This document shows positions 3,394-23,877 of a stretch of DNA of 64,000 nucleotides, piece after piece. The DNA comes from an uncultured Bacilli bacterium (GTDB lineage Bacteria > Bacillota_I > Bacilli_A > RF39 > UBA660): contig CAKPKL010000007.1 of NCBI GenBank assembly GCA_934167485.1, positions 12,186 to 76,185 on the forward strand. Reading direction: 5' to 3'. The notes under the pieces were generated by a model. It was not told where the DNA came from. It saw only the letters and a program-made list of their open reading frames with translations, and made no database searches. The translations under genes were made by a program, and so were the position numbers. Position 1 is the first letter of the stretch; the number at the start of each line of letters is the position of its first letter.

Positions 3394-3500
3394 GGTATGA
3401 TAAACATACCAAGTATTCTTTATGTTATTTATGTAAATAAATGATGTAAAGGATACACAACCAAAACCCCCTGAAGACACCCTTATTGGGTGTCATTTTT
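3394..3500 (+). ncRNA. Candidate ~105-nt small transcript (promoter to intrinsic terminator). Its 3' end coincides with the island attachment repeat.
   Basis: Bounded by the promoter at 3359-3387. It has a 5' hairpin GGTATG-ataaa-CATACC and a terminator GACACCC-ttatt-GGGTGTC followed by ATTTTT. No credible ORF or RBS lies inside. I do not recognise the RNA family. Confidence 0.3.
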
Positions 3501-3506
3501 GTTTAT
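3467..3506 (+). repeat. Junction repeat A (att-like): CCCCCTGAAG, hairpin, ATTTTTGTTTAT
   Basis: Same architecture as the copies at 7421, 15451 and 23836. The flanks are conserved while the stem sequences differ but still pair. Confidence 0.7.
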
Positions 3507-3558
3507 ATGTACGTAAATAAGGGAATTATAGAGATTTAGAAAAAGTAAAAAATAATGC

Positions 3559-3577
3559 TAGGTATCAATTAGGTACC
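3559..3577 (+). repeat. Arm-type direct repeat pair TAGGTATC / TAGGTACC (11-nt register), left end of E1
   Basis: Read directly from the sequence. The same motif recurs at 7329-7348 and 15543-15561. Confidence 0.6.
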
Positions 3578-3646
3578 ATTTTAAAAAATTTCTAAATTTT
3601 GGTATATTATATTGGTTACATAAAAAAATATTTTTAAGCCAAAGTC

Positions 3647-4093
3647 TTGACATATATTAACAAAAATGGAATAGGCTTGGTTATTCAACAAGATATTCCG
3701 GGTTCTAAGATTAGGGGAGCTTTTAAAGTTCATAAAGAGGTACCAGCGATTTATATTACATACAAGCATAAAAGAATTGGAGATATATACTTTGCATTAT
3801 TCCATGAGTTAGCACATTGCAAAAAGGATTTTAATCAAGCGAAAGGTACAAATTTGGTTTCATATGATAATGAAATAAAAACTGAGGAAACAGCTGATTT
3901 ACAAGCATATGAATGGATGGTTGATAACAAATATTATGAAAAGATTATTAATAATCAGGAATATGATATCGATAACGAGATGGTTTATCCTAAATGTTTT
4001 GTAGTGTATAAATTAGCTAAGGATGGATATATTGATTATTCATCAGAGATATATCAAAAATATAATTTCTTATTAAAAACAGATAATAAGTAG
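3647..4093 (+). CDS. ImmA/IrrE-family zinc metallopeptidase domain, 5'-truncated
   Basis: HExxH motif in FALFHELAHC, preceded by the usual GAF..hk..PvIyi pattern. The frame is closed by TAA only 4 codons upstream of a TTG, so the N-terminal part is missing. Confidence 0.5.
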   Translation: MTYINKNGIGLVIQQDIPGSKIRGAFKVHKEVPAIYITYKHKRIGDIYFALFHELAHCKKDFNQAKGTNLVSYDNEIKTEETADLQAYEWMVDNKYYEKIINNQEYDIDNEMVYPKCFVVYKLAKDGYIDYSSEIYQKYNFLLKTDNK

Positions 4094-4132
4094 TTTTATT
4101 AAAAATAGCTAGGAATGCTCCTGGCTTTTAGT

Positions 4133-4189
4133 TTATTCTAATTTGTCAATAAGATTTACAACCTCGTTTAAGGCTGAATTAAATAAGAA
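4133..4189 (-). pseudogene. Tyrosine integrase 3'-terminal remnant (last ~18 codons only)
   Basis: The minus strand translates to LFNSALNEVVNLIDKLE*. That matches the C-terminus of the integrase at 16319-17335 (LFNSALNEVVDLIDKLE*) with one substitution, despite many synonymous nucleotide differences. Similarity stops abruptly upstream. Confidence 0.75.
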
Positions 4190-4517
4190 AGATAAAAATA
4201 AAGTTATTAAAATAATGAAAAAGAGATAAAAAAACAAGAACAGTCTATTGATGATTAAAAAAAATTACTTACTGAAGAAGAATGATTTTTTAGTTAGTAA
4301 TGACAATATGACAAGAAATAGTGATATATGGTATGGTGTAATAAAGATGTCGTTGCTGTCATTGAAAATATAATGTTTGTCTAGCTAGTAAGCAATGAAT
4401 TTCTACTACTATATAAAATTCTATAATATAAATATACAAAATACTTATAACTAACAAGTTATTAAGTATTTTTTATTTTTATGTGCTATAATATATATTA
4501 CTTTGAGGGAGATTACT

Positions 4518-7175
4518 ATGGAATACGCAATTCAACAAAAGATAGACAAATTAAGTAAGATGTACAATTATTTTGAAGGTAAGAAAGCTATTAAGATTAT
4601 ATCTTCGATGACTATAGAAGAAGCAGAAATAGTTTTATCAAATCCAAGAGTACAAGAGATAATATTTAGAATAGATGATGTAGATACCTTAAGAGAAATT
4701 TTTAGAAAAAGTCCAGCATTTTTTCAGGAAATAATGTTTTCAAATGAAAGAACACAAGACCTACTTATTTCTCCTAAAAAATCTCTTAAAAGAAAAGAAT
4801 TAATAACAAACTATAATAATAGAAATTTTGTATTTAGCGAAAAAGAAATTAGAGAACTAGAAGTTTTTCTACATGCTATTAAAAGTTCAAAAATTTATGA
4901 GCAAATTGTAGATAGTAAATTTTTTCAAAGAATTGTACCAATGCTTTATGAAAAACAAATAACCAAATCTTTCTTTAGAGGTATTGATGCTGTTAAATTA
5001 TTTTATAATATTATTAATGATAAAGAAATATTTAATACTAAAAAACCAAGACAAAGAAATATAATTGAAATATTCAATAAAGTTAGTAATCATATCTTAT
5101 TATCAGATGATTATGAAAAAATTATTGGTGATGGTGAAAAATTTATTCAATCTAAAAAGTGGAAATGTAAAGATGAAGAAAAGATTTTTATAGATGACAG
5201 AACGCTATCTTTACTTACAATCCCGATGTTGGAAGAATTATTAGAATTTGAAAATATAGATAATGAATATATTAAGAACTATCTGAAAAAAGATATACTA
5301 CCTAAGATTATTAAAAATAATTATGATTTTAATAAAATATTCTCACATCTTTTGACAGGTAATTATAATTGTTTTAATGGTATTGATTATATTTACTTTA
5401 GTGTAATAATTGAGGAAATTGATAATAATGAAGAACTAAAAGAAAAATTTATAAATTTTATTTATAACATTTTATGTAATAATCAAAACTTTAATTTAAC
5501 TGAAGAAGATATGGTAAAAAAAGTACTATACAGCAAGATGAAAAACATGGAAATAAACAGGGAACAATATAAAAATTTATTCTATTCTCCAGATGGATTA
5601 AAGACAATTTTCTATCTAAAGTTTGGTAAATTATCTCAAAGAATGGATTACTTAAATGGTATTTCTTCAAAACAATTAATTTATTTAAATATTAAACATA
5701 TAAATCAAATATTAAATTCTTTAAATATTGAAAATGAAGATGAACTTTCAAATTTATATTCATTTTCAATAAAATTATATATGGTATTTGGATTAGAAAG
5801 AACATTAAAGATTCTTAAAGGTGATTATGGTCATATTAATAGATATTTCTTTGATAATGTAAGTAATCTTAATGTTAAAAACGTTGAATTGATAAAAGAA
5901 GGTAAAAAATATATACCTAAAATATCAAATGAATTTATAAGTTTTATGTTTGCTAACCAAAATGAAAATCATTTTAAAAATATGCTTTCAGATTCCTCTA
6001 GTTTATTAAGTAAAAATTGGAGTTACTTATATAATAATTATGAAGAACTAAAAGAAAAATGTCATGGTGTAATAACTCTTAAAAAACTTAATGTAATATT
6101 AAAAGAATTATCTCCTGAAAGAGACATTGATGATGTATCACCTAATAATTACAAATTACAAGAAAATGATATTTTAAATGATGTGTGTTTAGGTAATAAG
6201 TCAAGAAAGTCAAATCAAGAAGTATATAAAATGGTATTAGATATATATGAAAAAATGAAACGTAGAACAGAATCTAGTATTCCATATGTAAAAGGTGAAG
6301 CATCTAATGGATATTCATACGAGATGATGAAATTAAATGATCCGATAGCATTTACATTAGGATATAGATGCAATTGTTGTATAAGAGTTAACGATATTGC
6401 ACATAATCATTTATTACATGCTACATTATGTAGAAATGGTAGAATATTATTGCTTTTTGATAAACATCATCAATTAGCAGGATTTGTTCCATTAAAAAGA
6501 AATGGTGAATTACTTATAGCTAATAGTATTGAGTGTTTGCATAAAGTTAGAAATGAAAGTGCAATAATTGCATTTAAAGAAGCTATAAATGATATTGTTG
6601 AGATATCACAAAACAATGAAAAAGATTCAATAAAATTAGTATGTATTGGTCGTGAGGCATATGCAAAGCCAAATGGAATACCATTCCCTAATGATATTCC
6701 AACTCCAACTATTTTTGAAAAGAATGATCCTACTTATGCTCATACTGATCAATATCATAGAACACTAGATATTATATATCAGAAGCCTGCATTAAATATA
6801 TCTAATATTAAGTATGGTAATCCAACTTGCAGTTATACTGACCCTAGACCACAAATAAATTCTTGTGATTTCAGAAATGGAAATAATGAAACTATTGAAC
6901 AAGCATTAAAAGTTATTAATGCAGTAAGATATGAAAATGCCGATATAGAGGAATTAGAAAATTTCGCTTTATGTAGAAGATACGGTTTAGATAAATGTAT
7001 ATACAATGAAGATTGGTATATTGTAACGACATATGATGGTAAAATATATGGTGATTTTCTTAAATTTAATCCTAAAGCTGAGACAGAATATAAAATTGCT
7101 TTTGGTGAACTAGTTGGAATGAGTTACGATAATTATAAAGAAAAAAATGGTAAAGAGAAAAAATTAAGTTTATAA
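4518..7175 (+). CDS. Large hypothetical protein (885 aa), with a helical N-terminal two thirds and a Cys/His-containing C-terminal region
   Basis: Long ORF with RBS gagggag 7 nt before the ATG at 4518. It is preceded by a terminator hairpin and a TGcTATAAT promoter. I recognise no motif. Confidence 0.8.
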   Translation: MEYAIQQKIDKLSKMYNYFEGKKAIKIISSMTIEEAEIVLSNPRVQEIIFRIDDVDTLREIFRKSPAFFQEIMFSNERTQDLLISPKKSLKRKELITNYNNRNFVFSEKEIRELEVFLHAIKSSKIYEQIVDSKFFQRIVPMLYEKQITKSFFRGIDAVKLFYNIINDKEIFNTKKPRQRNIIEIFNKVSNHILLSDDYEKIIGDGEKFIQSKKWKCKDEEKIFIDDRTLSLLTIPMLEELLEFENIDNEYIKNYLKKDILPKIIKNNYDFNKIFSHLLTGNYNCFNGIDYIYFSVIIEEIDNNEELKEKFINFIYNILCNNQNFNLTEEDMVKKVLYSKMKNMEINREQYKNLFYSPDGLKTIFYLKFGKLSQRMDYLNGISSKQLIYLNIKHINQILNSLNIENEDELSNLYSFSIKLYMVFGLERTLKILKGDYGHINRYFFDNVSNLNVKNVELIKEGKKYIPKISNEFISFMFANQNENHFKNMLSDSSSLLSKNWSYLYNNYEELKEKCHGVITLKKLNVILKELSPERDIDDVSPNNYKLQENDILNDVCLGNKSRKSNQEVYKMVLDIYEKMKRRTESSIPYVKGEASNGYSYEMMKLNDPIAFTLGYRCNCCIRVNDIAHNHLLHATLCRNGRILLLFDKHHQLAGFVPLKRNGELLIANSIECLHKVRNESAIIAFKEAINDIVEISQNNEKDSIKLVCIGREAYAKPNGIPFPNDIPTPTIFEKNDPTYAHTDQYHRTLDIIYQKPALNISNIKYGNPTCSYTDPRPQINSCDFRNGNNETIEQALKVINAVRYENADIEELENFALCRRYGLDKCIYNEDWYIVTTYDGKIYGDFLKFNPKAETEYKIAFGELVGMSYDNYKEKNGKEKKLSL

Positions 7176-7328
7176 AAAAGAATATATTAAAAAAGCTAGT
7201 TAAAATCTAACTTTGGTTTTTTCTTTATTTCAGCAAGTGCTAAATCAGGTAAGCAATAATTTCCATATTTTTTATAATTTTGAATCTTTTCTTTAGTGAA
7301 GAATATTAGTAGTTATTGTTTTAAATTT

Positions 7329-7348
7329 TAGGTACCCATTTAGGTACT
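7329..7348 (+). repeat. Arm-type direct repeat pair TAGGTACC / TAGGTACT, right end of E1
   Basis: Read directly from the sequence. Same motif as the left end of E1. Confidence 0.55.
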
Positions 7349-7420
7349 AAATTACTAAAATCTCTTAAAATATAAGAACTTAATTAGCAATAATTTATTT
7401 TATATATGAAAGATTTTGGT

Positions 7421-7457
7421 ACTCTGAAGGAGCGCATTGCGTTCCATTTTTGTTTAT
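7421..7457 (+). repeat. Junction repeat B (degenerate core ACTCTGAAGG, hairpin GGAGCGC-att-GCGTTCC, ATTTTTGTTTAT)
   Basis: Aligned by eye with repeats A, C and D. Confidence 0.6.
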
Positions 7458-7489
7458 TTAAAAGGATTTTCAAGAGTTTAATATTGCTT

Positions 7490-7590: not shown

Positions 7591-8148
7591 ATGAAAGAAA
7601 AAGTATTAAATACATATGATGGTAAAGAATATACATTTTCAACATATTTTATTATAAATAATGGGAAATTATTTAGTACTAACAATTTTAATTTTGAAGA
7701 TAATTTAAAAAATTGTTTTTATATTAAAAAGTTTGGTTCAAATGTTCACCCAGTTATATATTTGGACACAAAAGTTGATAATAGATGGGTAAATAAAAAT
7801 CAAGTTATTGGCAATTATAATGCACTTATGGATTTTGTTATAGCTAATGAAAATAGTTATATTTGTATAAGAGGATTTAGTCACACTAATATTGAGCATT
7901 TTATAAGAATGATTAATGAGTTAAAAGGAACTAATATCAAACCAATTAAATTTAAAAGTAAACTTTCAGAGGCACAATATGAAAGACATCTTTTGACTAA
8001 AGAACAAAGAATAAAAAATTTAAATCAAAAACTTGATGCAAGTGGTGAAGTTGAATCTACTCATCAATATATGAAAATTGCAAATAGTGTATTTAGGGAA
8101 AGAAAGCATAAATCAAGAGTAAAAATTATGCAACTAAGAAAAAAGTAA
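7591..8148 (+). CDS. Hypothetical protein (185 aa), first gene of a pair lying between the att junction and the integrase
   Basis: ORF with RBS aaggag upstream. The C-terminus is basic. No motif recognised. Confidence 0.65.
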   Translation: MKEKVLNTYDGKEYTFSTYFIINNGKLFSTNNFNFEDNLKNCFYIKKFGSNVHPVIYLDTKVDNRWVNKNQVIGNYNALMDFVIANENSYICIRGFSHTNIEHFIRMINELKGTNIKPIKFKSKLSEAQYERHLLTKEQRIKNLNQKLDASGEVESTHQYMKIANSVFRERKHKSRVKIMQLRKK

Positions 8149-8162
8149 TTGGAGGTTTTGAA

Positions 8163-9245
8163 ATGACAATTGAACAAGCAAAGCAAGAATTAGTAAGAAG
8201 ATATAAATATTTATATGAGAATGCTTATTTTATATTAGCACCATATATGTATGAACAAAGTGAAGAAAAATTTAAAAAAAATGTAGATAAAAACTTAAAT
8301 AAATATAATGATGCTATATTAAAAAAAACGTTAATTTATTTGAATATCAATAGATTGGATAGTATAAATTCATTATTTGAAGAATTTTTGTTATCAGATA
8401 AACCAATGGAAGAAAGTACACTTTATCAAATGGTAGAAAGTAAAAGAAAAGATAAAGATTATTTAGATAAAGTAAAAAAAAGATTAGAATTACTAGAAAA
8501 AGATAATGCAGATAAAAAGTATGAAATGTTTAAATCAAAACTAAGCATATGGGAAATATTAGAAAAAGTTTCAGATTATATTGAAGAACAATCTGGTGAT
8601 TTAAAAAACAAAGAAAGAAAGTTATATGTTCTTGATCAATATTATAAAATTCATAGATATCAAAACAATGGTAAAATATATATTAGTGGTAGAAAATTAA
8701 ATTTACATGATGTTAGTTCTATTGTTATAGATTTGCATAAAAGAGAACCATTTAGAGATAAAAAAGATATAGGAATTAAAAACAACCCATTTATATCAGT
8801 AATATTTTCTGCGCCATATTATGAAGATAATTGGTCGATTTTTACTGAAAATGAAAAACAACAAATATATTTACAATATCATGATGAATTACCATGCGAT
8901 TTAGAAATAACTTGTGAACTTGAAGAAGAGTATATTCAAACAATGATAGAAACAAGATTATATAGACCTGAAAATACTGAACCTTGTGGAGAAAATTTTG
9001 TTGTAAAAGAAGAAGATATATTTGTTAATCCAAATGATAGATTATACAGATATTATCAATTATGTCCACATTGTGGCTATATGGTAAATATTCCTAAAGA
9101 GATTTTATCAGAAGGGATTAAACAAAGAATAGAAGATAGATGTGATAAAGATGAAAAATTATTTAGAAAAATGTTCCTTTATTCTGAATTGTTTAGTTTA
9201 GATAAAAATTCAACTAAAGGACAAAAGAAAGTATTAAAGAAATAG
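8163..9245 (+). CDS. Hypothetical protein (360 aa) with a possible C-terminal zinc ribbon
   Basis: Starts 14 nt after the previous gene, with RBS ggagg. The cysteines PCGENF...CPHCGYMVNIP suggest a zinc ribbon. Confidence 0.65.
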   Translation: MTIEQAKQELVRRYKYLYENAYFILAPYMYEQSEEKFKKNVDKNLNKYNDAILKKTLIYLNINRLDSINSLFEEFLLSDKPMEESTLYQMVESKRKDKDYLDKVKKRLELLEKDNADKKYEMFKSKLSIWEILEKVSDYIEEQSGDLKNKERKLYVLDQYYKIHRYQNNGKIYISGRKLNLHDVSSIVIDLHKREPFRDKKDIGIKNNPFISVIFSAPYYEDNWSIFTENEKQQIYLQYHDELPCDLEITCELEEEYIQTMIETRLYRPENTEPCGENFVVKEEDIFVNPNDRLYRYYQLCPHCGYMVNIPKEILSEGIKQRIEDRCDKDEKLFRKMFLYSELFSLDKNSTKGQKKVLKK

Positions 9246-9286: not shown

Positions 9287-10897
9287 TTATATTTCAATTT
9301 CATAATCATCATTATTTTTATCAATAATATTATCAATAATTTTATTTTGTGGTTCTTCATCTAAACTATCAATTATATTAACAATATTATTTAATTTACT
9401 TTTAAACATATGAACATAAGTGTTTAGAGTTTCATCAATTTTAGTATGACCTAAAAATTTAGCAACAATTTTTATATCAGCATCCGTGCTAATTAATAAA
9501 CTAGCACAGGAATGTCTAAAATCATGCAATCTAATTTGTTTAACTCCTGCTAATTTACAATTGTTATTTTTTCTTCTTCTAATAGCATCATCACCTAAAG
9601 GAAGTTCATTGCCAAAAACAAACCAATCTTCTCTAAAATTAGTATATTGCATAACACTTTCTTTAAGTGCTTTTAAGTCATCTGTAAACTTTTTTGATAA
9701 TGGTAAAGTTTTATTACTTTTTAAAGTTTTAGGACTAGATATGATATATTTTTTGCCATTAACATTATCTGATAGTCCTTTTCTAATTGTTAAAGTATTA
9801 TTATTAAAATCTATATCATTCCAATCTAATGCTCTAATTTCACCTTTACGAAGTCTCTTTGTGTAAGAAATAATATCAATAACGTCATTATCTTTATATC
9901 CAAACAAACCTTTCTTAATATCTAAAAGAGAACTTTTTAGTGGTTTATTTGCTTTTTCTATGGCTTCTTTTGATTGTTTTAATGAATTAGATATATTTTC
10001 ACATTCTTTAGTTAATTCTTCTAATTCGGCCTTTTTTTCGTTAATATCGTACTCTAATTTTGATTGATGAGTTTTAGATGAACCAATATTACCACGATCT
10101 AAATTAAAATCTTTATTAGTTATAAATTTATTGAATTCATCTTGCATTATAGCATAAGAATTTTTTCCACCTCTGTCTTTCCAAAATTGGTCATTGTTAA
10201 GAAAATTACCTTGAACTTTTTCATAAATAATTTTTCCTTTATCATCTCTTAAAAGTTTTGGTACTAGAGTTGTTTTATTATCTTTTGTTTTAATTTCTTC
10301 TTTAATTAAATTACCAAAGTTATCTTTAACAAAGCATTTTCTTTTTACCTCATTAACAACAGGTATAAAATATGCCTGTAAATGTGGTGTATCTTCATCA
10401 TAATGAACTTGAGCTAAAACAATATTTTCTTCACCAACATATTGTTTTAAAAATTCCATACAACAATCAAAAAATTTAGTTATAGAGTGAGGAATATCTT
10501 CTTTAGATTTTATATAAGGTACTTTTACTATTTGTCCTTTTTTATCTCCAGTTTTATAAGTTCTACCACTATCAATAAATTTCATACCTAGTGATTCAAA
10601 AAATTCAGGACCACTTGTAAAAGTAATACCATTTAGCATATTTGTATTAGGTTTATTTAAATATTCAATATTTCTATCTTTTAACTTTTTCTTAACTTCT
10701 TGATATAGATTTCTTTCAGTAATAGATACATACTCAACATTATAAATTCTTCTTTCGTAATCATAATTTCCAGTTCCTTTTCGAGAACTCATTTCAACAC
10801 CTATATTATATAAATCATTTTGTTTATATTTGGTTTCTACTCGTAAGACTTGCTTACCATCATACAATATTTTATCTCCTTCTTTAGTAGAGGTCAT
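9287..10897 (-). CDS. Chimeric protein: MobV/Pre-type relaxase N-terminal region fused to a tyrosine-recombinase catalytic domain
   Basis: The N-terminal ~330 aa carry VHYDEDTPHLQ (the HxDExxPHxH-like relaxase motif) and a coiled coil. The C-terminal ~200 aa align with the integrase at 16319-17335, running from RLRKGEIRALDW through HDFRHSCAS and GHTKIDETLNTYVH. The R, HxxR, H and Y catalytic residues are present. The core-binding and arm-binding domains are absent. Confidence 0.7.
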   Translation of the reverse strand: MTSTKEGDKILYDGKQVLRVETKYKQNDLYNIGVEMSSRKGTGNYDYERRIYNVEYVSITERNLYQEVKKKLKDRNIEYLNKPNTNMLNGITFTSGPEFFESLGMKFIDSGRTYKTGDKKGQIVKVPYIKSKEDIPHSITKFFDCCMEFLKQYVGEENIVLAQVHYDEDTPHLQAYFIPVVNEVKRKCFVKDNFGNLIKEEIKTKDNKTTLVPKLLRDDKGKIIYEKVQGNFLNNDQFWKDRGGKNSYAIMQDEFNKFITNKDFNLDRGNIGSSKTHQSKLEYDINEKKAELEELTKECENISNSLKQSKEAIEKANKPLKSSLLDIKKGLFGYKDNDVIDIISYTKRLRKGEIRALDWNDIDFNNNTLTIRKGLSDNVNGKKYIISSPKTLKSNKTLPLSKKFTDDLKALKESVMQYTNFREDWFVFGNELPLGDDAIRRRKNNNCKLAGVKQIRLHDFRHSCASLLISTDADIKIVAKFLGHTKIDETLNTYVHMFKSKLNNIVNIIDSLDEEPQNKIIDNIIDKNNDDYEIEI

Positions 10898-11947: not shown

Positions 11948-11959
11948 ATGTTCTCCTTT

Positions 11960-12199: not shown

Positions 12200-12228
12200 T
12201 TATTCACCTCACTTTCTAGAACAAATAA

Positions 12229-12254
12229 GGTTCAAAAACCGCCATTTTTGAACC
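12229..12254. promoter_or_regulatory. Operator-like perfect inverted repeat GGTTCAAAAA-ccgcca-TTTTTGAACC in the divergent switch region
   Basis: The 10-bp arms were read directly. Further GTTCAAAA half-sites lie at 12313-12320 and 12344-12350, the latter between the -35 and the extended -10 (TGTATAAT) of the XRE gene. Confidence 0.55.
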
Positions 12255-15450: not shown

Positions 15451-15492
15451 CCCCCTGAAGAGAGCGATTAACTTATGTCGCTCTCATTTTTT
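15451..15492 (+). repeat. Junction repeat C: CCCCCTGAAG, hairpin GAGAGCGA..TCGCTCTC, ATTTTTT
   Basis: Aligned by eye with repeats A, B and D. Confidence 0.7.
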
Positions 15493-15542
15493 GTAGGAAA
15501 TATAAGGGTTTTATCAGTTTGATAATTCTCTAAAAATAGGAT

Positions 15543-15561
15543 TAGGTACCAATTAGGTACC
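15543..15561 (+). repeat. Arm-type direct repeat pair TAGGTACC / TAGGTACC, left end of E3
   Basis: Read directly from the sequence. Nearly identical to 3559-3577, including the trailing ATTTT. Confidence 0.6.
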
Positions 15562-16297: not shown

Positions 16298-16321
16298 TTA
16301 GGAGCAAACCTAACTTTTTTA
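16296..16321. terminator. Bidirectional terminator AGTTAGG-agcaaa-CCTAACT followed by a T-run, between convergent genes
   Basis: Read directly from the sequence. Confidence 0.6.
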
Positions 16322-17832: not shown

Positions 17833-19788
17833 ATGGATAATAATGTAAGAGCTGAATTAATAAAAATATTAGCAAGTGGAAATAGTATTCCAGAAACATA
17901 TAAAGATATTATTTTTCCAACTATAAATAAGGAATATGAATTATCTTATGCAGGAAAAATGAGAGCCGAAGATGTATTATCTTGCAATGATGGTGTTTAT
18001 TCTATGCCACTGCAAATTGAAAAATCATTTAAAACAGATGAATCAGAGTGGAATAACATAATATGTTTTGGGGACAATTTACAATTGTTAAAAACAATTA
18101 ATGAGAATGTTGATCCAATCATAAAAGACAAAGTAAAAGGTAAAGTAAAATTAATATATATAGATCCACCATTTGCAACTGAAGATGAGTTTAAAAATAA
18201 AGATGGTGCTAAGGCATATAATGATAAAGTAAAGGGTGCTGATTTTATTGAATTTATGCGTAGAAGATTAATTCTAGCAAAAGAAATATTAGCGGATGAT
18301 GGTTCAATATTTGTTCATTTGGATATGAAAATGAGTAATTATATAAAAATAATATTAGATGAGGTTTTTGGTAAAAATAACCTATTAAATGAGATTATTT
18401 GGCATTTTAGAACATATCAAGGGCAAACAGACAAGTATTATCCAAGAAAGCATAATGTTATATATTGGTATAAAAAGAAAAATAATCCTACTTTTAAATT
18501 AGATTATGATGATGATTATGAAGATACTGTTGATGCTGAAAGATGGAGAAAATATGTTGTTAATGGTAATGAAATACGTGGTAATAAATTTCCAAAATCT
18601 GATTCTAGATTTAAGGGATATTATGATAGATTTGTTAAAGAACACGGAAGAAAGCCAAATAAAGATGACATAATAATGAAAATAAATGGATATGTTGTAG
18701 ATGATGTTTGGGTTGACATAAATGCGGTAGACCCTAAAGACAAAATTGAAAAAACAGGATATCCGACTCAAAAACCTGAACAATTGTTAAGAAGAATAAT
18801 TGAAACAACTACAGAAAAGGGAGATTTGATATTTGATTTCTTTGGGGGATCTGGTACAACTTCAGCTGTTGCTGAAAAATTAGGAAGACGATGGATAACG
18901 TGCGATTTAGGAAAGTTATCATATTATACAATCCAAAAAAGAATTATAAATATAGGAAATTCAAAAGACTTGTTTGATCCAACAAAAAAATATAATAAAA
19001 ATCCAAGTAATTTTATAACTTGTCAATTAGGATTGTATGATTTAAATTCAGTAATTAATCTTCCATGGGAACAATATGTGGAATTTGTTTCTGATTTGTT
19101 TGAAATTAAGTTAAAAAAGAATAAGGTAAATGGAATCGAATTTGATGGAACAAAAAATTTAGAACCAACTTTAATATGGGATTTTAATAAGTATAAAGAT
19201 GTTATAATTGATGAAAATTATATTAATAACTTAAATCTTAATTTAGCAAATAAGTATGAAGGTAATATTTATATAGTAGCTCCAGCAAATTGTTTTGATT
19301 TCATTGAGGATTACTATGAAATTAATAATAATAGATACTACTTTTTGAAAATACCTTATCAGATTATAAGAGAATTGCATAAAGTGCCTTTCAAAAAGAT
19401 ATTACAGCCTAATAGTAAAAATAATGTTAATAGTATTGATGAATCTATTGGTTTTCATTTCATTAAGCAACCTACTGTTAAGAGTAAAGTTACTAAAAAG
19501 GACAATGAATTATTAATTTCACTTAAAGAGTTTAAGAGTTATTATTATAAGGATGAAGACGGAAAAATATTAAAAAATTTTGAAACACTATCTGCAATGT
19601 TTGTAGATTATGATTATCATGAACCATTTATTATTGACGATGTTTTTTTTGCAGATGAATTTAAAAAAGAATCTGACAATCTCGTAATAAAAGTTAACAC
19701 CAAAAAAATTGGCAAAAAAATAATGCTAATTTATGTTGATATTTATGGTAATGAATTTAAAGAAATTATTCAGTTAGGTGGTAAATAA
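17833..19788 (+). CDS. mod: Type III R-M DNA methyltransferase (Mod), beta-class N6A/N4C
   Basis: Motif IV LIYIDPPF lies before motif I FDFFGGSGTTSAVAEKLGRRWI. The length (651 aa) and the adjacent res gene fit. Confidence 0.85.
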   Translation: MDNNVRAELIKILASGNSIPETYKDIIFPTINKEYELSYAGKMRAEDVLSCNDGVYSMPLQIEKSFKTDESEWNNIICFGDNLQLLKTINENVDPIIKDKVKGKVKLIYIDPPFATEDEFKNKDGAKAYNDKVKGADFIEFMRRRLILAKEILADDGSIFVHLDMKMSNYIKIILDEVFGKNNLLNEIIWHFRTYQGQTDKYYPRKHNVIYWYKKKNNPTFKLDYDDDYEDTVDAERWRKYVVNGNEIRGNKFPKSDSRFKGYYDRFVKEHGRKPNKDDIIMKINGYVVDDVWVDINAVDPKDKIEKTGYPTQKPEQLLRRIIETTTEKGDLIFDFFGGSGTTSAVAEKLGRRWITCDLGKLSYYTIQKRIINIGNSKDLFDPTKKYNKNPSNFITCQLGLYDLNSVINLPWEQYVEFVSDLFEIKLKKNKVNGIEFDGTKNLEPTLIWDFNKYKDVIIDENYINNLNLNLANKYEGNIYIVAPANCFDFIEDYYEINNNRYYFLKIPYQIIRELHKVPFKKILQPNSKNNVNSIDESIGFHFIKQPTVKSKVTKKDNELLISLKEFKSYYYKDEDGKILKNFETLSAMFVDYDYHEPFIIDDVFFADEFKKESDNLVIKVNTKKIGKKIMLIYVDIYGNEFKEIIQLGGK

Positions 19789-19789
19789 A

Positions 19790-22375
19790 ATGAATAACGA
19801 TGCAAATTTAATATTTAATTTAGATGATTTAATTTTAAAGGTTAATCATTATTACGATACATCAAAATATAATTTAGAAGTTTGGGAAAACTATTTGAAC
19901 ATATTAACAGAAGGAAGAACATATCAAAAGGAAGCTATTTTATCGGCTATTTATTACTTAATAGATGCAAATGTTCCAGATTTGAAGACTCTTGCATATA
20001 ATAATTTTAATCAAAATCAATATTTAAAAAGCAAATATAATAATAACTTCTATGAGTTTGAATCTAATCTACAACTTCCTAGCAAAAAATATGCTACCAT
20101 TGATTTGGCAACAGGAACAGGTAAGTCATACGTTCTGTATGGTATCTCTCAAATACTTTTAGGAATAGGTTTTGTGGAAAGAGTTTTATTATTATGCCCA
20201 TCAACAACAATAGAATATGAGTTAACAAAGAAATTCAAAGAATTAAGTCAAAATAATGTGTTGTCTGATTTAATACCAGAGGAAGCTATTATAAAAACAC
20301 CAAGAATAGTAGATGCTAATGTTTCTGTAAAATTAGGAGATATATGTATTGAAAACATTCATTCGGTATACGAAAACACAGGGTCTTCTATTGATGATAG
20401 TTTTACAGGTACAGGAATAAATACTCTTGTATTAAATGATGAAGCACACCATATATTTAATAATGTTAGTTATTCAGGTAGAAATGAAACAAGTGAATTA
20501 AAGAAATGGAAAGAGTTTTTGTTAAACGACAAATACAACTTTCAATATGTGATTGGAACTACTGGAACGGCATATATTGAAAATGAGTATTTTTGTGATG
20601 TTATATATAGATATTCATTAAACAAAGCAATAGAAGATAGGATTGTAAAAAACATTAATTATGTATTGAAGGACGATGAAATAAGTGAAAATGAAAAATT
20701 CACTAAAATATATCAAAATCATAGTGATTATAAAAAATTGTATTCTAAAATAAAGCCTATAACTATTTTTGTAACAAAAGATAAACAAAATTGTAATAGT
20801 GTTACAAATAAATTGAAAGATTATTTGAAAAAGTTTGAAAACATTACAGATGAAGAAGCTGATAAAAAAGTATTAATAGTTACATCAGCTCCTGAACACA
20901 AAAATAATGTAGCAATACTAAGAAGTGTTGATAATAGTGATAATGATGTTGAATGGATAGTATCTGTATCGATGTTAACAGAAGGCTGGGATGTAAAAAA
21001 TGTATTTCAAATTGTTCCATGGGAAGATCGTGCTTTCAATTCTAAATTATTAATTTCACAAGTTTTAGGAAGAGGTTTAAGAATTCCTAAAGAATACCAA
21101 ACTCCACAACCAGTTGTAACAATATTCAATCATGCGTCATGGACTAAAAATATCAGAAGTTTTGTTGACCAAATATTAGAGATATCAGATAGAATAACTT
21201 CAAATATAATTATAGAAGGAAAAAGAGCTAAATATAATTTTGATTTATATAATATCAATTATGAGAAGGCACTTATAGAAAAAGAACATAAAAAGAATAA
21301 AACCTTTGATTATAGCAGAATGCAAAAAGAAGGAATAAAACTTGAATCTCAGGTATTGAAATATAACAAAGTTGTTGAATTCACAGACGTTTTAGAAAAC
21401 AAAATTATTGAAAAACAATTTGAAATCAACGAAGAAACTTATACGGTTGATGAGGTTGTTGACAAGATATATGATGAGTTTCAACTGAGAGAATGGGAAG
21501 GCATTACTTTAAAACTTGGTTTAGAGAAATATACAAAAAATAATTTACCGCCTAGAGATGAGATTAAGAAAATTGTTTTAAATTCAATGAAAAAAGTTGG
21601 AATAGATGGAAAACTTTTAACAATAAAAAACAGAAATTCAATATTAAAAGCATTTAATACTCTTTTAAGACAAAATGGTAAAACTGTAGAATATATTAAT
21701 ATTGAGAAAGATTTAGAAATTGTTAAAACTAATGTAATGGCTTCTCAAAGTACAAATATTCTTAATTTAAAAAGAGGAGAAACAACAATTTTTCATACAA
21801 ATGAGTGGAAACAAGAAGTTGATAATAAAAACTTAATTGTTTTTGAAAAGGTACTTGATGATGGAACAATGCCACGACAATCTACGCATGAGGTAAATAT
21901 CAATAATTTCAAAACTCCTGTTGATTTAGTAATTGTAAATGGATCTCCAGAGAGAAAATTTGTATCACAACTAATTGAAAATAATAATGCTAACATTATT
22001 GACTCGTGGATTAAATCTAGAGATAAGAATTTTTATTCAATTGATTATACTTGGAGAAAAAACGGGCATCAAATGTCAAATTCAGCATTCAATCCTGATT
22101 TTTTCATAAAACTAACTGAAGATGGTATTGATACTATTGTTGTAGTTGAAATTAAGGATGATGGTGATGATAGTGATGAAAATAAGGCTAAGTATAGATA
22201 TGCTTTAGATCACTTTGAAAATTTAAATGAAAAGTTAGAAAATAGTGGTATAAATCAAAAATACATTTTTCACTTCTTAAGTCCAATATCATATAATGCA
22301 TTTTTTGAATACTTAGGAAACCATAAAATAGAACAATTTAAATGTGATTTAGAAAACTTATTAGAAGAAAATTAG
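19790..22375 (+). CDS. res: Type III restriction enzyme Res subunit (helicase plus C-terminal PD-ExK nuclease)
   Basis: DLATGTGKS (motif I), LNDEAHH (DEAH), TEGWDV, and the C-terminal NPDFFIKL...VVVEIKDD. The ATG at 19790 follows the mod stop by 1 nt, with RBS aggtgg. Confidence 0.85.
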   Translation: MNNDANLIFNLDDLILKVNHYYDTSKYNLEVWENYLNILTEGRTYQKEAILSAIYYLIDANVPDLKTLAYNNFNQNQYLKSKYNNNFYEFESNLQLPSKKYATIDLATGTGKSYVLYGISQILLGIGFVERVLLLCPSTTIEYELTKKFKELSQNNVLSDLIPEEAIIKTPRIVDANVSVKLGDICIENIHSVYENTGSSIDDSFTGTGINTLVLNDEAHHIFNNVSYSGRNETSELKKWKEFLLNDKYNFQYVIGTTGTAYIENEYFCDVIYRYSLNKAIEDRIVKNINYVLKDDEISENEKFTKIYQNHSDYKKLYSKIKPITIFVTKDKQNCNSVTNKLKDYLKKFENITDEEADKKVLIVTSAPEHKNNVAILRSVDNSDNDVEWIVSVSMLTEGWDVKNVFQIVPWEDRAFNSKLLISQVLGRGLRIPKEYQTPQPVVTIFNHASWTKNIRSFVDQILEISDRITSNIIIEGKRAKYNFDLYNINYEKALIEKEHKKNKTFDYSRMQKEGIKLESQVLKYNKVVEFTDVLENKIIEKQFEINEETYTVDEVVDKIYDEFQLREWEGITLKLGLEKYTKNNLPPRDEIKKIVLNSMKKVGIDGKLLTIKNRNSILKAFNTLLRQNGKTVEYINIEKDLEIVKTNVMASQSTNILNLKRGETTIFHTNEWKQEVDNKNLIVFEKVLDDGTMPRQSTHEVNINNFKTPVDLVIVNGSPERKFVSQLIENNNANIIDSWIKSRDKNFYSIDYTWRKNGHQMSNSAFNPDFFIKLTEDGIDTIVVVEIKDDGDDSDENKAKYRYALDHFENLNEKLENSGINQKYIFHFLSPISYNAFFEYLGNHKIEQFKCDLENLLEEN

Positions 22376-22487
22376 AAAAGGCATTTTATGTCTTTTTTTA
22401 TCATTTTAAATTAGAATAATTATATAAAAAAGAAATATTTTGGATATTTGTGATATAATTATAATTAAAGGAATTGGAGATGTAATT

Positions 22488-23119
22488 ATGTCCTTTGATT
22501 ATAAAAAAGAATATAAAGAATTTTATATGCCTAAGAATAAACCATGTATAGTTGAAATACCTAAAATGAATTACATTGCAGTACGAGGTAATGGTAATCC
22601 AAATGAAGAAAATGATGATTATCAGAATACTATTGGATTATTATCTGGAATTGCTTATACAATAAAAATGATTTCTAAAGGAACACACAAAATAAATGGC
22701 TTTTTTGAATATGTTGTTCCACCACTTGAAGGATTCTGGTGGCAAGATGGATTAAAAGAAAGCATTGATTATAATAATAAAGGTGCTATGCATTTTATAT
22801 CAATTATTAGATTACTAGATTTTGTTACTAAGGAAGACTTTGATTGTGCAATTGAAGAAGCGACTAAAAAGAAAAAATGGATTTTTCTAGAGTAGAATTT
22901 TTAACTAATGATGAAGGTGTATGTGTTCAATGTATGCATATTTGAAGTTATGATGATGAACCAGCCACAGTTGAATTAATGCACAATTTTATGAAAGAAA
23001 ATGGATATGAATTAGATATAACAGATAAAAGATATCATCATGAAATATATTTAAGTGATCTACGAAAATGTGATGTAAGTAAATTAAAGACTGTAATAAG
23101 ACATCCAATAAGGAAGTAG
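22488..23119 (+). pseudogene. GyrI-like small-molecule-binding domain gene, disrupted by a frameshift and an in-frame TGA
   Basis: The frame breaks in the A-run near 22870. The +1 frame continues MDFSRVEFLTNDEGVCVQCMHI*SYDDEPATVELMHNFMKENGYELDITDKRYHHEIYLSD...RHPIRK*, which is the expected C-terminal half. Confidence 0.7.
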
Positions 23120-23127
23120 GTGTTGGC

Positions 23128-23679
23128 GTGAATTATAGTTTTAAAATTTTTCAAAAAAATGCTGTAATAAGATTTTTAGCATTAGATAAGTATAATTATA
23201 TAATGGAAAATATTTATAAATGCGATATAAGTAAAGATGGTGAATTTCAAAAGGTATTTAATGCATTTTATCGTGTAAGAAGAGATGAAAAATGGCGAAA
23301 AGTATTTTATACTTACTTTGAATCAATTAAAGATAAAAAGAATATAACATTTGAAGAAATAGTTAGTTACATGTACAAGAAAACAGGAAATATTGAAGCA
23401 TCTTTTTGTAGTAAACTTTTATCTACACTAAATCCTAATATGCCAATCTGGGATCAATATGTATTAGCTAATTTAGATTTGGATGTAAAAGAGAAAACAA
23501 AAGTAGAAAAATTAAAAGATACTATAGCAGTTTATAATAAAATAATTGAAATAGAAAATAACAAACTTAAACAAAAAGATATCCAGCAAGCTATAAAAGA
23601 TTTTAAAGAACACTTTCCTGAATATAATTTATCAGATATAAAAATATTGGATTATATACTATGGAATAGTAGAAATTAA
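23128..23679 (+). CDS. Hypothetical protein (183 aa, GTG start)
   Basis: ORF only. No motif recognised. Confidence 0.5.
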   Translation: MNYSFKIFQKNAVIRFLALDKYNYIMENIYKCDISKDGEFQKVFNAFYRVRRDEKWRKVFYTYFESIKDKKNITFEEIVSYMYKKTGNIEASFCSKLLSTLNPNMPIWDQYVLANLDLDVKEKTKVEKLKDTIAVYNKIIEIENNKLKQKDIQQAIKDFKEHFPEYNLSDIKILDYILWNSRN

Positions 23680-23835
23680 GAACTAAAAATGAATATAGAT
23701 GCCAAGTTTGGTGTTATATATTAATTTAAAAACACACTAATAAATACCATTTTATTAAGGTAAAAACAAAAATATAACGGCTCTAAAAGGTCGTTTTTAA
23801 AAGAAATTAACATACAAAACATTTGTTTGTTTGAT

Positions 23836-23877
23836 CCCCCTAAAGAGAACGTAGTGATATATTCTCATTTTGTTTAT
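23836..23877 (+). repeat. Junction repeat D (rightmost, probably the displaced ancestral copy): CCCCCTAAAG, hairpin GAGAA..TTCTC, ATTTTGTTTAT
   Basis: Aligned by eye with repeats A to C. Confidence 0.6.

What the first reader, a model, noticed from the sequence alone, without database searches (positions are those of the whole stretch)
3467..23877. Tandem array of three integrative elements at one attachment site, with covarying hairpins in the junction repeats
Four copies of the same ~40-nt unit lie at 3467, 7421, 15451 and 23836. Each is CCCCCTGAAG (degenerate in B and D), then a hairpin, then ATTTTTGTTTAT, then ..AAGGG.TT... They divide 20 kb into three blocks, and each block has an integrase or integrase remnant on the minus strand 0.6-1.9 kb to the right of its left junction.

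The conserved flanks are nearly identical. The hairpin stems are all different yet all still pair (GACACCC/GGGTGTC, GGAGCGC/GCGTTCC, GAGAGCGA/TCGCTCTC, GAGAA/TTCTC).

This is what I would expect if each incoming element brought its own diverged copy of the 3' end of the target gene, terminator included. It fits less well with simple duplication of one att core.

All three recombinases look defective: a 19-codon remnant, a relaxase fusion lacking the DNA-binding domains, and an N-terminally short integrase. The array may therefore be a fixed accretion hotspot.
Basis: partly seen in the sequence, partly recalled or inferred. Interest (0 to 1): 0.65.

Follow-up and report, generated by a model that had tools for sequence, protein, structure and literature searches.

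The report
Decayed mobile elements stacked at sRNA gene
Three (plus a scrap of a fourth) broken-down mobile DNA elements carrying anti-phage genes sit head-to-tail at the end of a small, previously undescribed regulatory-RNA-like gene next to recG in an uncultured gut bacterium, and each element brought its own replacement stop signal for that RNA; this is a clear example of a known process at a new target.

Summary
Four units of CCCCCTGAAG + GC-rich hairpin + ATTTTTGT lie on the + strand at 3467, 7420, 15451 and 23836, and nowhere else in the window.

It has its own promoter, two covarying hairpins and an unpaired ACAACCAAAACCCCCUGAAG stretch. It is present once after recG in about 26 related contigs and matches no Rfam family.

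Ten conspecific contigs (98.4-99.6% identical) lose homology to the window at 3475-3478, the end of the 10-bp core. After the same sRNA body they carry six different terminators, each with a different element. No empty site was seen.

All three integrases are deletion-damaged:
- an 18-codon remnant;
- a chimera of relaxase residues 1-342 with integrase residues 199-370;
- an integrase lacking its first 37 residues.

Unit D is followed by about 50 nt of a fourth element's left arm.

This is tandem accretion of decayed integrative elements carrying defence-type genes. It is a new member of a known kind with a new sRNA target. Excision and sRNA expression were not tested.

The parts
1375..3354 (+). 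recG, the left chromosomal flank
   Evidence: Pfam RecG_wedge, DEAD, Helicase_C and RecG_dom3_C. The flank is 98.4-99.6% identical in ten conspecific contigs.
3359..3387 (+). Predicted promoter of the sRNA gene (TTGACT-17-TATACT)
   Evidence: Promoter-like site in the consensus scan. The same hexamers and spacing are kept directly after the recG stop in about 20 related species.
3394..3502 (+). Putative sRNA gene, the integration target. It has a 5' hairpin, a long second hairpin, an unpaired ACAACCAAAACCCCCUGAAG stretch and then a terminator. In this strain the terminator is supplied by element 1.
   Evidence: Fold -40.6 kcal/mol, z = -7.3. Covariance model R1 finds one full copy per locus in 26 loci and only this one in the window. 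94.7% of cells pair and 14 of 18 pairs show changes on both sides (the alignment was fitted to the model). No Rfam family matches.
3467..3506 (+). Unit A = attL of element 1. Core CCCCCTGAAG 3467-3476, element-borne terminator hairpin 3476-3494, T-tract.
   Evidence: Homology with conspecific contigs that carry other elements ends at 3475-3478.
3519..3578 (+). Left arm of element 1: the AAGGGAATT motif (3519-3527) and paired arm-type repeats TAGGTATCA / TAGGTACCA (3559-3578)
   Evidence: (D13).
3647..4093 (+). Element 1 cargo ORF between attL and the integrase. It resembles PD-Lambda-2_B and the Lit peptidase.
   Evidence: PADLOC PD-Lambda-2_B 1.2e-13 and Lit 3e-4. The homologue in L010-L012 has a weak Peptidase_U49 hit.
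4133..4185 (-). Integrase remnant of element 1 (last 17 codons plus the stop)
   Evidence: Translates to ..FNSALNEVVNLIDKLE*. It matches residues 354-371 of the intact L010 integrase at 94%. L010 is 99.7% identical up to 4185 and then continues into a full integrase.
4193..4421 (+). Fragment of the 3' end of an HTH regulator gene plus its downstream DNA. It marks the far side of the internal deletion in element 1.
   Evidence: 82-91% identical to L053, L057, L058, L006 and L008, downstream of their 175-aa HTH genes.
4503..7175 (+). Element 1 cargo ORF of 890 aa with no family match
   Evidence: No Pfam or PADLOC hit.
7328..7348 (+). Right-arm repeats of element 1 (TTAGGTACC, TTAGGTACT)
   Evidence: Same motif as in the left arm.
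7420..7469 (+). Unit B = junction of elements 1 and 2. Degenerate core TACTCTGAAG, hairpin 7429-7445, T-tract, AAGGATTT motif 7462-7469.
7591..9245 (+). Two element 2 cargo ORFs (185 and 360 aa) in the slot between the left junction and the integrase
   Evidence: No family hits.
9287..10897 (-). Chimeric ORF produced by a deletion: the N-terminal part of a Mob_Pre relaxase fused to the C-terminal catalytic part of a tyrosine integrase
   Evidence: Pfam Mob_Pre plus Phage_integrase. It matches L052 Mob residues 1-342 and integrase residues 199-370. In L052 the two are separate genes of 483 and 370 aa.
11111..12909 (.). Element 2 backbone: AAA_25 ATPase (11111-11947, -), 79-aa ORF (11960-12199, -), HTH_3 regulator (12382-12909, +)
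   Evidence: The same module order occurs in L052, L053 and L057, at about 66% DNA identity.
12975..15312 (+). Element 2 cargo: a 283-aa ORF (weak PD-T7-1 and PD-T7-5 hits) and a 487-aa Schlafen/AlbA_2 protein (PDC-S50)
15451..15561 (+). Unit C = junction of elements 2 and 3. Core 15451-15460, hairpin 15460-15485, AAGGGTTT 15504-15511, arm repeats TTAGGTACC x2 at 15542-15561.
15644..16297 (+). Element 3 cargo ORF (217 aa) in the slot between the left junction and the integrase
   Evidence: No family hit.
16319..17335 (-). Element 3 tyrosine integrase, N-terminally truncated. The catalytic domain is intact and the arm-binding N-terminus is missing.
   Evidence: Pfam Phage_integrase 4e-28. It aligns to residues 38-371 of the L010 integrase at 92%. 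The full-length relatives carry a weak Arm-DNA-bind_4 hit.
17833..22375 (+). Element 3 cargo: type III restriction-modification (Mod 17833-19788, Res 19778-22375)
   Evidence: Pfam N6_N4_Mtase, and ResIII plus SWI2_SNF2. PADLOC MTase_III 7e-54.
23836..23922 (+). Unit D plus the remnant of a fourth element. Core CCCCCTAAAG, hairpin 23845-23866 (a variant of the chromosomal hairpin), AAGGGTTT 23882-23889, and one arm half-site TTTTAGTTACAC.
   Evidence: The post-hairpin DNA is homologous to the left arm of the elements in L025, L032 and L062. Chromosomal homology resumes at 23923.
24186..24602 (+). hsp20, the right chromosomal flank
   Evidence: Pfam HSP20. The identical protein sits next to different islands in L001-L009.

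Best explanation
Between recG and hsp20 lies a short gene that most likely encodes a trans-acting sRNA. Its 3' end is the chromosomal attachment site (attB) for a diverse set of elements that carry lambda-type tyrosine integrases.

Strand exchange takes place inside the 10-bp core CCCCCTGAAG. This core is also the end of the sRNA's conserved unpaired stretch. Everything to the right of the core in attL comes from the element, so every element carries its own Rho-independent terminator and the sRNA stays terminated after insertion. Only the ability to pair and a following U-tract are needed, so the stems differ in sequence from element to element.

In this strain, successive insertions into the core copies built a head-to-tail array: element 1 (3477-7429), element 2 (7430-15460), element 3 (15461-23845) and a ~50-nt scrap of a fourth. 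Internal deletions then removed or truncated each integrase. The array is now immobile unless a related integrase acts in trans, and it is inherited as a block. The cargo consists mainly of defence-type genes.

**Shown**
- the repeats;
- the homology breakpoints at the core;
- the different contents of the site in other strains;
- the terminators that differ by element;
- the truncated integrases.

**Inferred**
- that the sRNA is expressed and acts as a regulator;
- that integrases made the junctions;
- the order of the insertions;
- the loss of mobility.
For: **The units**
- The four units are real and exceed chance.

**The target gene**
- A conserved promoter, a three-hairpin fold and an unpaired C-rich stretch are present in about 26 loci from species whose RecG is 60-75% identical.
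- Fold z-scores range from -3.9 to -8.0.
- Covariation supports the structure.

**The breakpoints**
- All ten conspecific contigs lose homology at 3475-3478.
- All copies next to hsp20 start their shared sequence at CCCCC.

**The terminators**
- This species has six element-specific terminators.
- About 28 distinct hairpins were found overall, all directly abutting the core.
- The same left arm occurs behind different sRNA bodies in L025, L032 and L062.

**The element side**
- Left ends carry paired arm-type repeats whose sequence varies with the integrase type. Chromosomal sides lack them.
- Intact relatives have 370-374-aa integrases with a weak Arm-DNA-bind_4 hit next to attL.

**Decay**
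- Integrase damage is documented.
- The same array occurs in 8 contigs from several samples.

**Cargo**
- Defence-type cargo is present here and in the other strains.
Against: - No empty site was found in the species. None of the 19 distinct places shown, drawn from about 45 contigs read, had one.
- No circular or attP junction was found.
- The two metagenome scans returned nothing, including the control pattern for the species itself. They are therefore uninformative.
- No element from this array was seen on its own elsewhere, so the independence of blocks 1, 2 and 3 rests on the junction anatomy and on related, not identical, elements.
- sRNA expression is not shown.
- Unit D's hairpin resembles the chromosomal hairpin (18 of 22 bases) yet is followed by element-arm DNA. 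A single crossover in the left core does not explain this simply.
- Arm repeats were not found at the right end of element 3 or around element 2.
Confidence: 0.85

Rival explanations
1. The target is not a separate sRNA gene. The ~110 nt after recG is just the recG 3' UTR and terminator, and the elements insert at the recG terminator.
For: The unit lies only 113 nt from the recG stop, on the same strand. No expression data exist and no Rfam family matches.
Against: - A near-consensus promoter (TTGACT-17-TATACT) sits between the recG stop and the structured part. It keeps the same spacing in about 20 species.
- The hairpins covary, and the 18-19-nt unpaired stretch is almost invariant across species whose RecG is only 60-75% identical.
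- In L020 the unit lies 3 kb away from recG.
Confidence: 0.12
2. This is one composite island whose internal repeats arose by in situ duplication of a single att core followed by divergence. It was not built by separate integration events.
For: The whole array is inherited as one block in 8 contigs. None of the three blocks was seen alone.
Against: - The hairpins share no homology beyond the requirement to pair.
- Each junction has its own left-arm DNA, with the motif and arm repeats typical of independent elements seen in other strains and species.
- Each block has its own integrase gene or remnant, and these are of different lineages. The fusion's integrase part is 53% identical to the L010 integrase, whereas integrase 3 is 92% identical to it.
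- The elements have two different backbone types.
Confidence: 0.04
3. The hairpins are the recombination substrates themselves, recognised by structure in folded single-stranded DNA as integron attC sites are. That would explain why structure is kept but sequence is not.
For: The pattern is conserved flanks around a stem of conserved structure and variable sequence.
Against: - The stems are perfect, GC-rich and always followed by a T-run on the strand of the sRNA and the cargo genes. This is the signature of an intrinsic terminator.
- The integrases are ordinary arm-binding lambda-type enzymes with paired arm repeats.
- The homology breakpoints lie at the core, to the left of the hairpin.
Confidence: 0.03
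4. The four units are unrelated generic terminators that resemble each other by chance or through base composition.
For: Terminators in AT-rich genomes share GC-rich stems and T-runs.
Against: - The CCCCCTGAAG block precedes every hairpin and occurs nowhere else in the window.
- The combined pattern is found 4 times on the + strand, against a mean of 0.8 in shuffles.
- Homology breakpoints fall at the core in ten contigs.
Confidence: 0.01

Closest known systems
Tandem accretion of integrative elements and cis-mobilizable elements (CIMEs), as described for ICESt1-related elements in Streptococcus thermophilus and for streptococcal IMEs (review PMC5704250)
   Same: Both involve site-specific insertion at the 3' end of a gene and decay of the resident element, which keeps attL and attR but loses its integrase. 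Further elements then insert into an att copy and produce head-to-tail arrays. MobV/Mob_Pre relaxases occur in relatives of the elements here.
   Different: The target here is a short sRNA-like gene, not a protein or tRNA gene. All members of this array are decayed. No conjugative helper and no cis-mobilisation has been shown. The host is an uncultured low-GC Bacilli lineage.
Tandem ssrA-specific genomic islands of Dehalococcoides (PMC3146451)
   Same: Both have several islands in a row downstream of one small RNA gene, each bounded by a short direct repeat of its 3' end. In both, an integration module sits on the reverse strand next to attL, some islands lack that module, and the region varies strongly between strains.
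   Different: Those islands use a serine recombinase and a 20-bp repeat of a tmRNA end that is conserved in sequence. Here the enzymes are tyrosine integrases, the repeat is 10 bp, and the rest of the RNA's 3' end (the terminator) is replaced by non-homologous hairpins.
Prophage and island integration at sRNA genes in enterobacteria (ryeB/SdsR locus in Salmonella, ryeE in E. coli; summarised in PMC3603311)
   Same: A regulatory sRNA gene with hairpins serves as an insertion hotspot for horizontally acquired DNA.
   Different: The phylum and the sRNA are different. Here the crossover lies at the end of the sRNA's conserved unpaired stretch, and more than 25 element-borne terminator variants are documented.
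Integrase-associated defence islands at chromosomal hotspots (E. coli pan-genome survey, PMC10121019)
   Same: The cargo at one hotspot differs between strains. It includes restriction-modification types I, II and III and proteins matching families of abortive-infection and other defence systems (AbiEii, ToxN, HamA with a helicase, reverse transcriptase with SLATT), carried on small integrase-bearing elements.
   Different: The host lineage and the attachment site are different. No defence function was tested here.

Membership tests
Site-specific integrative element with a lambda-type tyrosine integrase | Encodes a tyrosine recombinase with the catalytic R...HxxR...Y residues | tested here: met
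   Pfam PF00589 hits for 16319-17335 (4e-28) and 9287-10897 (2e-20). R174, H283, R286, H309 and Y319 are invariant in alignment A4. All three copies are truncated elsewhere.
Site-specific integrative element with a lambda-type tyrosine integrase | Bounded by direct repeats of the attachment core | tested here: met
   Core copies lie at 3467, 7420, 15451 and 23836.
Site-specific integrative element with a lambda-type tyrosine integrase | Arm-type repeats next to the core, and an arm-binding N-terminal domain in the integrase | tested here: inconclusive
   Paired repeats are present at the left arms of elements 1 and 3 and at the right arm of element 1, and in most related elements. Intact relatives have only a weak Arm-DNA-bind_4 hit. 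No convincing repeats were found for element 2 or at the right end of element 3.
Site-specific integrative element with a lambda-type tyrosine integrase | The site's contents vary between strains, with breakpoints at the core | tested here: met
   At least ten different contents occur in conspecific contigs, with breakpoints at 3475-3478. No empty site was seen.
Site-specific integrative element with a lambda-type tyrosine integrase | Excision to a circle with attP and a restored attB | not testable with these tools
   A scan for the predicted attB junction found nothing, but the control pattern for the species also found nothing in that collection.
Cis-mobilizable element (CIME) in a tandem accretion | Keeps attL and attR but has lost a functional integrase | tested here: met
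   The integrases are an 18-codon remnant, a relaxase-integrase chimera lacking integrase residues 1-198, and a copy lacking residues 1-37. Loss of activity is inferred from sequence only.
Cis-mobilizable element (CIME) in a tandem accretion | Can be mobilised in cis by a related intact element | not testable with these tools
   This needs an experiment.
Integrative mobilizable element (IME) | Encodes a relaxase and/or carries an oriT | tested here: inconclusive
   Element 2 has only the N-terminal 342 residues of a Mob_Pre relaxase, fused to integrase. The relatives in L052, L016 and L032 have a full 483-aa gene. oriT was not looked for. Elements 1 and 3 have no relaxase.
Integron cassette array (attC sites) | An IntI-type integrase, and attC sites with imperfect stems recognised as folded single strands | tested here: not met
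   The stems are perfect GC-rich terminators followed by T-runs. The integrases are arm-type and lie within each block. Breakpoints are left of the hairpin.
Known sRNA families (Rfam 15, including C-rich Firmicute sRNAs such as RsaE/RoxS) | Reaches the family's gathering score | tested here: not met
   There was no hit at gathering thresholds. The best sub-threshold E-values were 0.2-5, to unrelated families.
Trans-acting sRNA (generic) | Own promoter, Rho-independent terminator, and conserved structure with covariation | tested here: met
Trans-acting sRNA (generic) | Expressed as a discrete RNA that pairs with target mRNAs | not testable with these tools
   No transcript data were available. 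No extended complement of the unpaired stretch exists elsewhere in the window.

The most novel reading that the evidence does not exclude
A previously undescribed sRNA family, conserved across an uncultured low-GC gut Bacilli lineage, may be the dedicated attachment site of a whole guild of integrative elements carrying defence-type genes. The crossover core coincides with the end of the sRNA's invariant unpaired C-rich stretch, its probable seed.

Three consequences would follow:
- Every insertion swaps the sRNA's terminator. Predicted stabilities range from about -4 to -17 kcal/mol, so the resident element could set the sRNA's 3' end and its level.
- Every internal junction places a seed-plus-terminator module at the end of a cargo operon. 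Such modules might yield extra seed-bearing 3'-UTR fragments.
- The chromosomal terminator, orphaned in every strain examined, is decaying.
Probability: 0.2. Interest if true: 0.65.

Novelty: new member of a known kind. Interest (0 to 1): 0.45.

Why it matters
- **A candidate new regulator.** The work points to an unannotated, strongly conserved sRNA gene in a poorly known group of human and animal gut bacteria. Its promoter, fold and probable seed are defined well enough to test.
- **A clean natural experiment.** When the part of the target gene that an element must replace is constrained only by structure, the replacement drifts freely in sequence but keeps pairing. This explains the hairpin pattern without any unusual recombination chemistry.
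- **A practical marker.** The recG-sRNA-hsp20 interval is a hotspot of defence-type genes in this species. It could be used to type strains and to look for new defence genes, such as the unmatched 890-aa, 360-aa and 217-aa ORFs.
- **Limits.** The underlying process, tandem accretion followed by decay, is well known.

Tried and rejected
**Searches that found nothing**
- Scan of metagenome contigs for the predicted empty-site junction (CCAAAACCCCCTRAAGAGARCRTAG): 0 hits.
- Control scan for the species' own sRNA end: also 0 hits. The collection does not hold this species, so the negative result says nothing.
- Scan of viral contigs for core-N14-30-ATTTTTGTTTAT: one hit, L062. It is another species' attL, not a free attP.
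- The L010 integrase as a query in viral contigs: no pattern match.
- Exact look-up of the 890-aa ORF: not on record, because the gene caller used a different start and gives 885 aa.
- Look-up of the SLFN/AlbA_2 protein: only the same array was returned, so there is no independent occurrence of element 2.
- Rfam in E-value mode on the window copy and on the L035 copy: only noise.
- Search for an extended complement of the sRNA's unpaired stretch in the window: only the gene itself.

**Ideas considered and dropped**
- Element 1 as a fusion of two elements. It is equally explained by one internal deletion, from within int to within the HTH gene, in an element of the L053/L057 layout.
- The conserved AAGGGTTT motif as the second core-type integrase site. 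It is roughly the reverse complement of AAACCC(CC)T, and in some elements it forms AAACCCTT-N7-AAGGGTTT. I dropped this as the crossover site because all breakpoints lie at CCCCCTGAAG. Its role remains unknown.
- RNAalifold on the first MAFFT alignment missed the 5' hairpin because the divergent sequences were misaligned. The model-based alignment recovers it.


Full report
**1. The observation**

The four units are in the sequence as described. All are on the + strand.

| Unit | Sequence: core, hairpin, T-tract |
|---|---|
| A | CCCCCTGAAG (3467-3476), GACACCC-TTATT-GGGTGTC, ATTTTTGTTTAT |
| B | TACTCTGAAG (7420-7429), GGAGCGC-ATT-GCGTTCC, ATTTTTGTTTAT |
| C | CCCCCTGAAG (15451-15460), GAGAGCGAT-TAACTTAT-GTCGCTCTC, ATTTTTTG |
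| D | CCCCCTAAAG (23836-23845), GAGAA...TTCTC, ATTTTGTTTAT |

- A consensus scan calls A, B and C terminator-like.
- The core with up to one mismatch occurs only at A, C and D in the 64 kb.
- The combined pattern CT[GA]AAG-N15-28-CATTTT hits the + strand only at the four units. Dinucleotide shuffles gave a mean of 0.8 hits on both strands together.

**2. What the units sit on: a conserved sRNA-like gene**

recG ends at 3354 and unit A starts 113 nt later, so the target is not recG.

A scan of one genome per species with RecG returned about 30 contigs of uncultured, very low-GC Bacilli from human, rabbit and ruminant guts. Their RecG is 60-75% identical to the window's. Nearly all have the same arrangement directly after the recG stop:
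- a TTGACT-17-TATACT promoter;
- a 5' hairpin;
- a second hairpin;
- an almost invariant ACAACCAAAACCCCCTGAAG stretch;
- a GC-rich hairpin with a T-run.

The window copy (3394-3502) folds into three hairpins with this 19-nt stretch left unpaired, at -40.6 kcal/mol and z = -7.3. Five other versions give the same architecture although their stem sequences differ.

A covariance model built from 20 species finds exactly one full copy per locus in 26 loci, and only the one at 3394-3476 in the window. Structure support:
- On the MAFFT alignment, 93.5% of cells pair, against 31-60% when partners are slid.
- On the model-fitted alignment, 94.7% pair and 14 of 18 pairs show changes on both sides. That alignment leans towards the structure and includes three weak matches.

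No Rfam family reaches its threshold. No ORF runs through the core; this comes from reading the sequence directly.

I therefore read this as an unannotated trans-acting sRNA with a C-rich unpaired seed-like stretch. Expression is not shown.

**3. The crossover lies in the 10-bp core, and the terminator belongs to the element**

Exact-protein look-ups with Hsp20, RecG and the small exporter upstream of recG returned conspecific contigs from many human gut samples.

Ten of them are 98.4-99.6% identical to window 1-3476, and all lose homology at 3475-3478. After the identical sRNA body they carry six different hairpins, each with a different element:

| Hairpin stem and loop | Contigs |
|---|---|
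| GACACCC (loop TTATT) | window, L010-L012 |
| GACCGGC (loop TAT) | L007, L054, L061 |
| ATCCCAGCC (loop GAGA) | L052 |
| GGAGCC (loop GAAA) | L053, L057-L060 |
| GGACCTC (loop GAAA) | L055 |
| GACGGAAC (loop GATTAAAT) | L056 |

At the other end, the copy about 300 nt upstream of hsp20 always begins its shared sequence at CCCCC. It carries the same hairpin, GAGAGCATAG(GG/AA)ATATACTCTC, whatever the cargo.

This is the pattern expected from a Campbell-type insertion with strand exchange inside CCCCCTGAAG:
- attL is the sRNA body, the core and the element's terminator.
- attR is the element's right end, the core and the original terminator.

Across all loci about 28 distinct hairpins follow the core. 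Each abuts it directly, with the last core base usually forming the first stem base. Swapping the 3' halves between units lowers pairing to 55%. Hairpins were selected by folding, so the 100% figure for the unswapped units is circular.

The left arm shared by L025, L032 and the IMG/VR contig L062 occurs behind three different sRNA bodies, and L032's hairpin differs from the one in L025 and L062. This ties the arm DNA to the element rather than to the host, and shows that hairpins change within an element lineage.

**4. Anatomy of the element ends**

To the right of the terminator, most left ends carry a (T)ATAAGGGTTT motif. Twenty to forty nt further on they carry a pair of direct repeats whose sequence changes with the integrase type:
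- TAGGTACC in the window;
- TAGGTACAC, TATGTGGCA, CTAGATACCA, CAACYACCCA and others elsewhere.

Chromosomal sides lack both features. This holds for the hsp20-proximal copies and for the single unit of L042, which has no integrase match and may be an empty site in another species.

In the window:
- Element 1 has the repeats at both ends, at 3559-3578 and 7328-7348.
- Element 3 has them at its left end, at 15542-15561.

Intact relatives have 370-374-aa integrases with a weak Arm-DNA-bind_4 hit, placed next to attL on the - strand. This is the layout of lambda-type integrases with arm-type sites. That comparison rests on established knowledge of the family, not on a test made here.

**5. Unit D is not the pristine end**

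The DNA after D's T-tract reads TATATTAAAGGGTTTCATATTTGTTAAGTAATTTTAGTTACAC. It is homologous to the left arm of the elements in L025, L032 and L062 and includes one arm half-site. Chromosomal homology to other strains resumes only at 23923.

So a fourth element once sat here and was almost entirely deleted.

D's hairpin matches the chromosomal hairpin at 18 of 22 bases, with a compensated G-C to A-T change. I cannot tell whether it is this strain's allele of the chromosomal hairpin or the fourth element's own hairpin.

**6. The three recombinases are damaged by deletions**

Results of tblastn with intact relatives:

| Window feature | Matches in intact relative |
|---|---|
| 4133-4185 (remnant) | L010 integrase residues 354-371 |
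| 9287-10897 (fusion) | L052 Mob_Pre residues 1-342, then integrase residues 199-370 |
| 16319-17335 (integrase 3) | L010 integrase residues 38-371, 92% identity |

- **Element 1.** L010 is 99.7% identical to the window up to 4185 and then continues into a full integrase. The window instead continues with the 3' end of an HTH gene of the L053/L057 type. One deletion therefore removed the integrase, replication and regulator module.
- **Element 2.** In L052, L016 and L032 the relaxase (483 aa) and the integrase (370 aa) are separate neighbouring genes. The fusion is a deletion product that lacks the integrase's arm-binding and core-binding parts.
- **Element 3.** Compared with L003 and L056, about 2.5 kb is missing. 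It would have held the start of the integrase gene, a repressor-like gene, an HTH gene and a Phg_2220_C gene.

The catalytic residues survive in integrase 3 and in the fusion. Loss of function is an inference. No other integrase is present in the window.

The same three-element array occurs in 8 contigs from several samples. It is therefore stably inherited in one lineage.

**7. Contents of the elements**

In the window:
- type III restriction-modification;
- a Schlafen/AlbA_2 protein (PDC-S50);
- a PD-Lambda-2_B/Lit-like ORF;
- a weak PD-T7-1/PD-T7-5-like ORF;
- several ORFs with no family match.

In other strains, the same interval holds the following:
- type I and type II restriction-modification;
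- AbiEii, ToxN and Fic;
- HamA with a helicase;
- a reverse transcriptase with SLATT;
- nucleotide-metabolism clusters.

Two backbone types appear:
- int-(mob)-AAA_25-small ORF / HTH;
- int-S24 repressor-HTH-Phg_2220_C-HNH.

In each window element, + strand cargo ORFs also fill a slot between attL and the 3' end of the integrase gene. Each internal unit lies 140-250 nt downstream of a + strand cargo ORF and is placed to terminate it.

**8. Comparison with what is known**

- Tandem accretion and decay to cis-mobilizable elements is well described (PMC5704250).
- Dehalococcoides has tandem islands at ssrA (PMC3146451).
- sRNA genes are known insertion sites in enterobacteria (PMC3603311).
- Integrase-borne defence islands at hotspots are known (PMC10121019).

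The case here adds a new target RNA, a new host lineage, and a very clear illustration that the replaced 3' end needs only to fold. I therefore rate it a new member of a known kind, of moderate interest.

**9. What remains open**

- whether the sRNA is expressed, and what it targets;
- direct evidence of excision or integration;
- the role of the AAGGGTTT motif;
- the origin of unit D's hairpin;
- whether any strain of this species has an empty site. None was seen in the 19 distinct places shown, drawn from about 45 contigs read. The only large DNA collection I could scan does not hold the species.

Noticed in passing
window 23923-25900 compared with window 1-3476: The left flank (recG side) is 98.4-99.6% identical to conspecific contigs. 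The right flank (hsp20 side) is only about 87-89% identical to the same contigs, although the Hsp20 protein is identical. This suggests a divergent or imported allele to the right of the hotspot, or fast evolution at the start of the 1320-aa gene.
   Followed up: partly
L026 (end at 12125), L029 (end at 12085), L030 (end at 2645): Several MAG contigs from other species end at, or one base beyond, CCCCCTGAA(G); L024 stops about 55 nt after its core. These look like assembly breaks at the core, as expected if the junction is repeated or polymorphic in those populations.
   Followed up: no
L010 11508-11517: One conspecific contig has a substitution inside the sRNA's conserved unpaired stretch and core (CCCCCAGAAG instead of CCCCCTGAAG), next to an intact integrase.
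   Followed up: no
window 3647-4093, 7591-9245, 15644-16297: Each element has + strand ORFs in a slot between its left junction and the 3' end of the - strand integrase gene. In the intact relatives L052, L053 and L057 the integrase directly abuts attL. This looks like a secondary cargo insertion point.
   Followed up: partly
L007 9693-9731 and the equivalent sites in L002-L008; window 23845-23866: The hairpin next to hsp20, presumably the original sRNA terminator, is the weakest of all at -4 to -6 kcal/mol and has an internal mismatch. Element-borne hairpins range from -9 to -17 kcal/mol. This fits loss of selection after long separation from the sRNA.
   Followed up: partly
about 40-70 nt after the core in most element left ends, e.g. 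L024 12083+ and L041 12081+; window 3519-3527, 15504-15511, 23882-23889: A conserved (T)ATAAGGGTTT motif lies on the element side. In some elements it forms an inverted repeat AAACCCTT-N7-AAGGGTTT, and it roughly mirrors the AAAACCCCCT of the sRNA. Its role is unknown; it may be a protein-binding site.
   Followed up: partly
window 24050-24076: Upstream of hsp20 there is a TTAGCACTC half-site followed by a degenerate second half. It resembles a decayed CIRCE (HrcA) operator overlapping a TTGACT promoter hexamer. This comes from reading the sequence and from recalling the consensus; it was not tested.
   Followed up: no
window 40332-40674: A tmRNA gene (tag GNRNQLAFA) and two tRNA genes (44098-44171, 48163-48237) are present, but no integrase homologue was found anywhere in the window outside the array. 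These classical insertion sites appear unoccupied by elements of this integrase family.
   Followed up: partly
L007 4373-9731 (same in L054 and L061): Another strain type has three units (4373, 7129, 9693) bounding two short blocks with no integrase at all. The blocks hold Fic, an EcoEI_R_C fragment and unknown ORFs. This is an even more decayed two-element array at the same site.
   Followed up: partly
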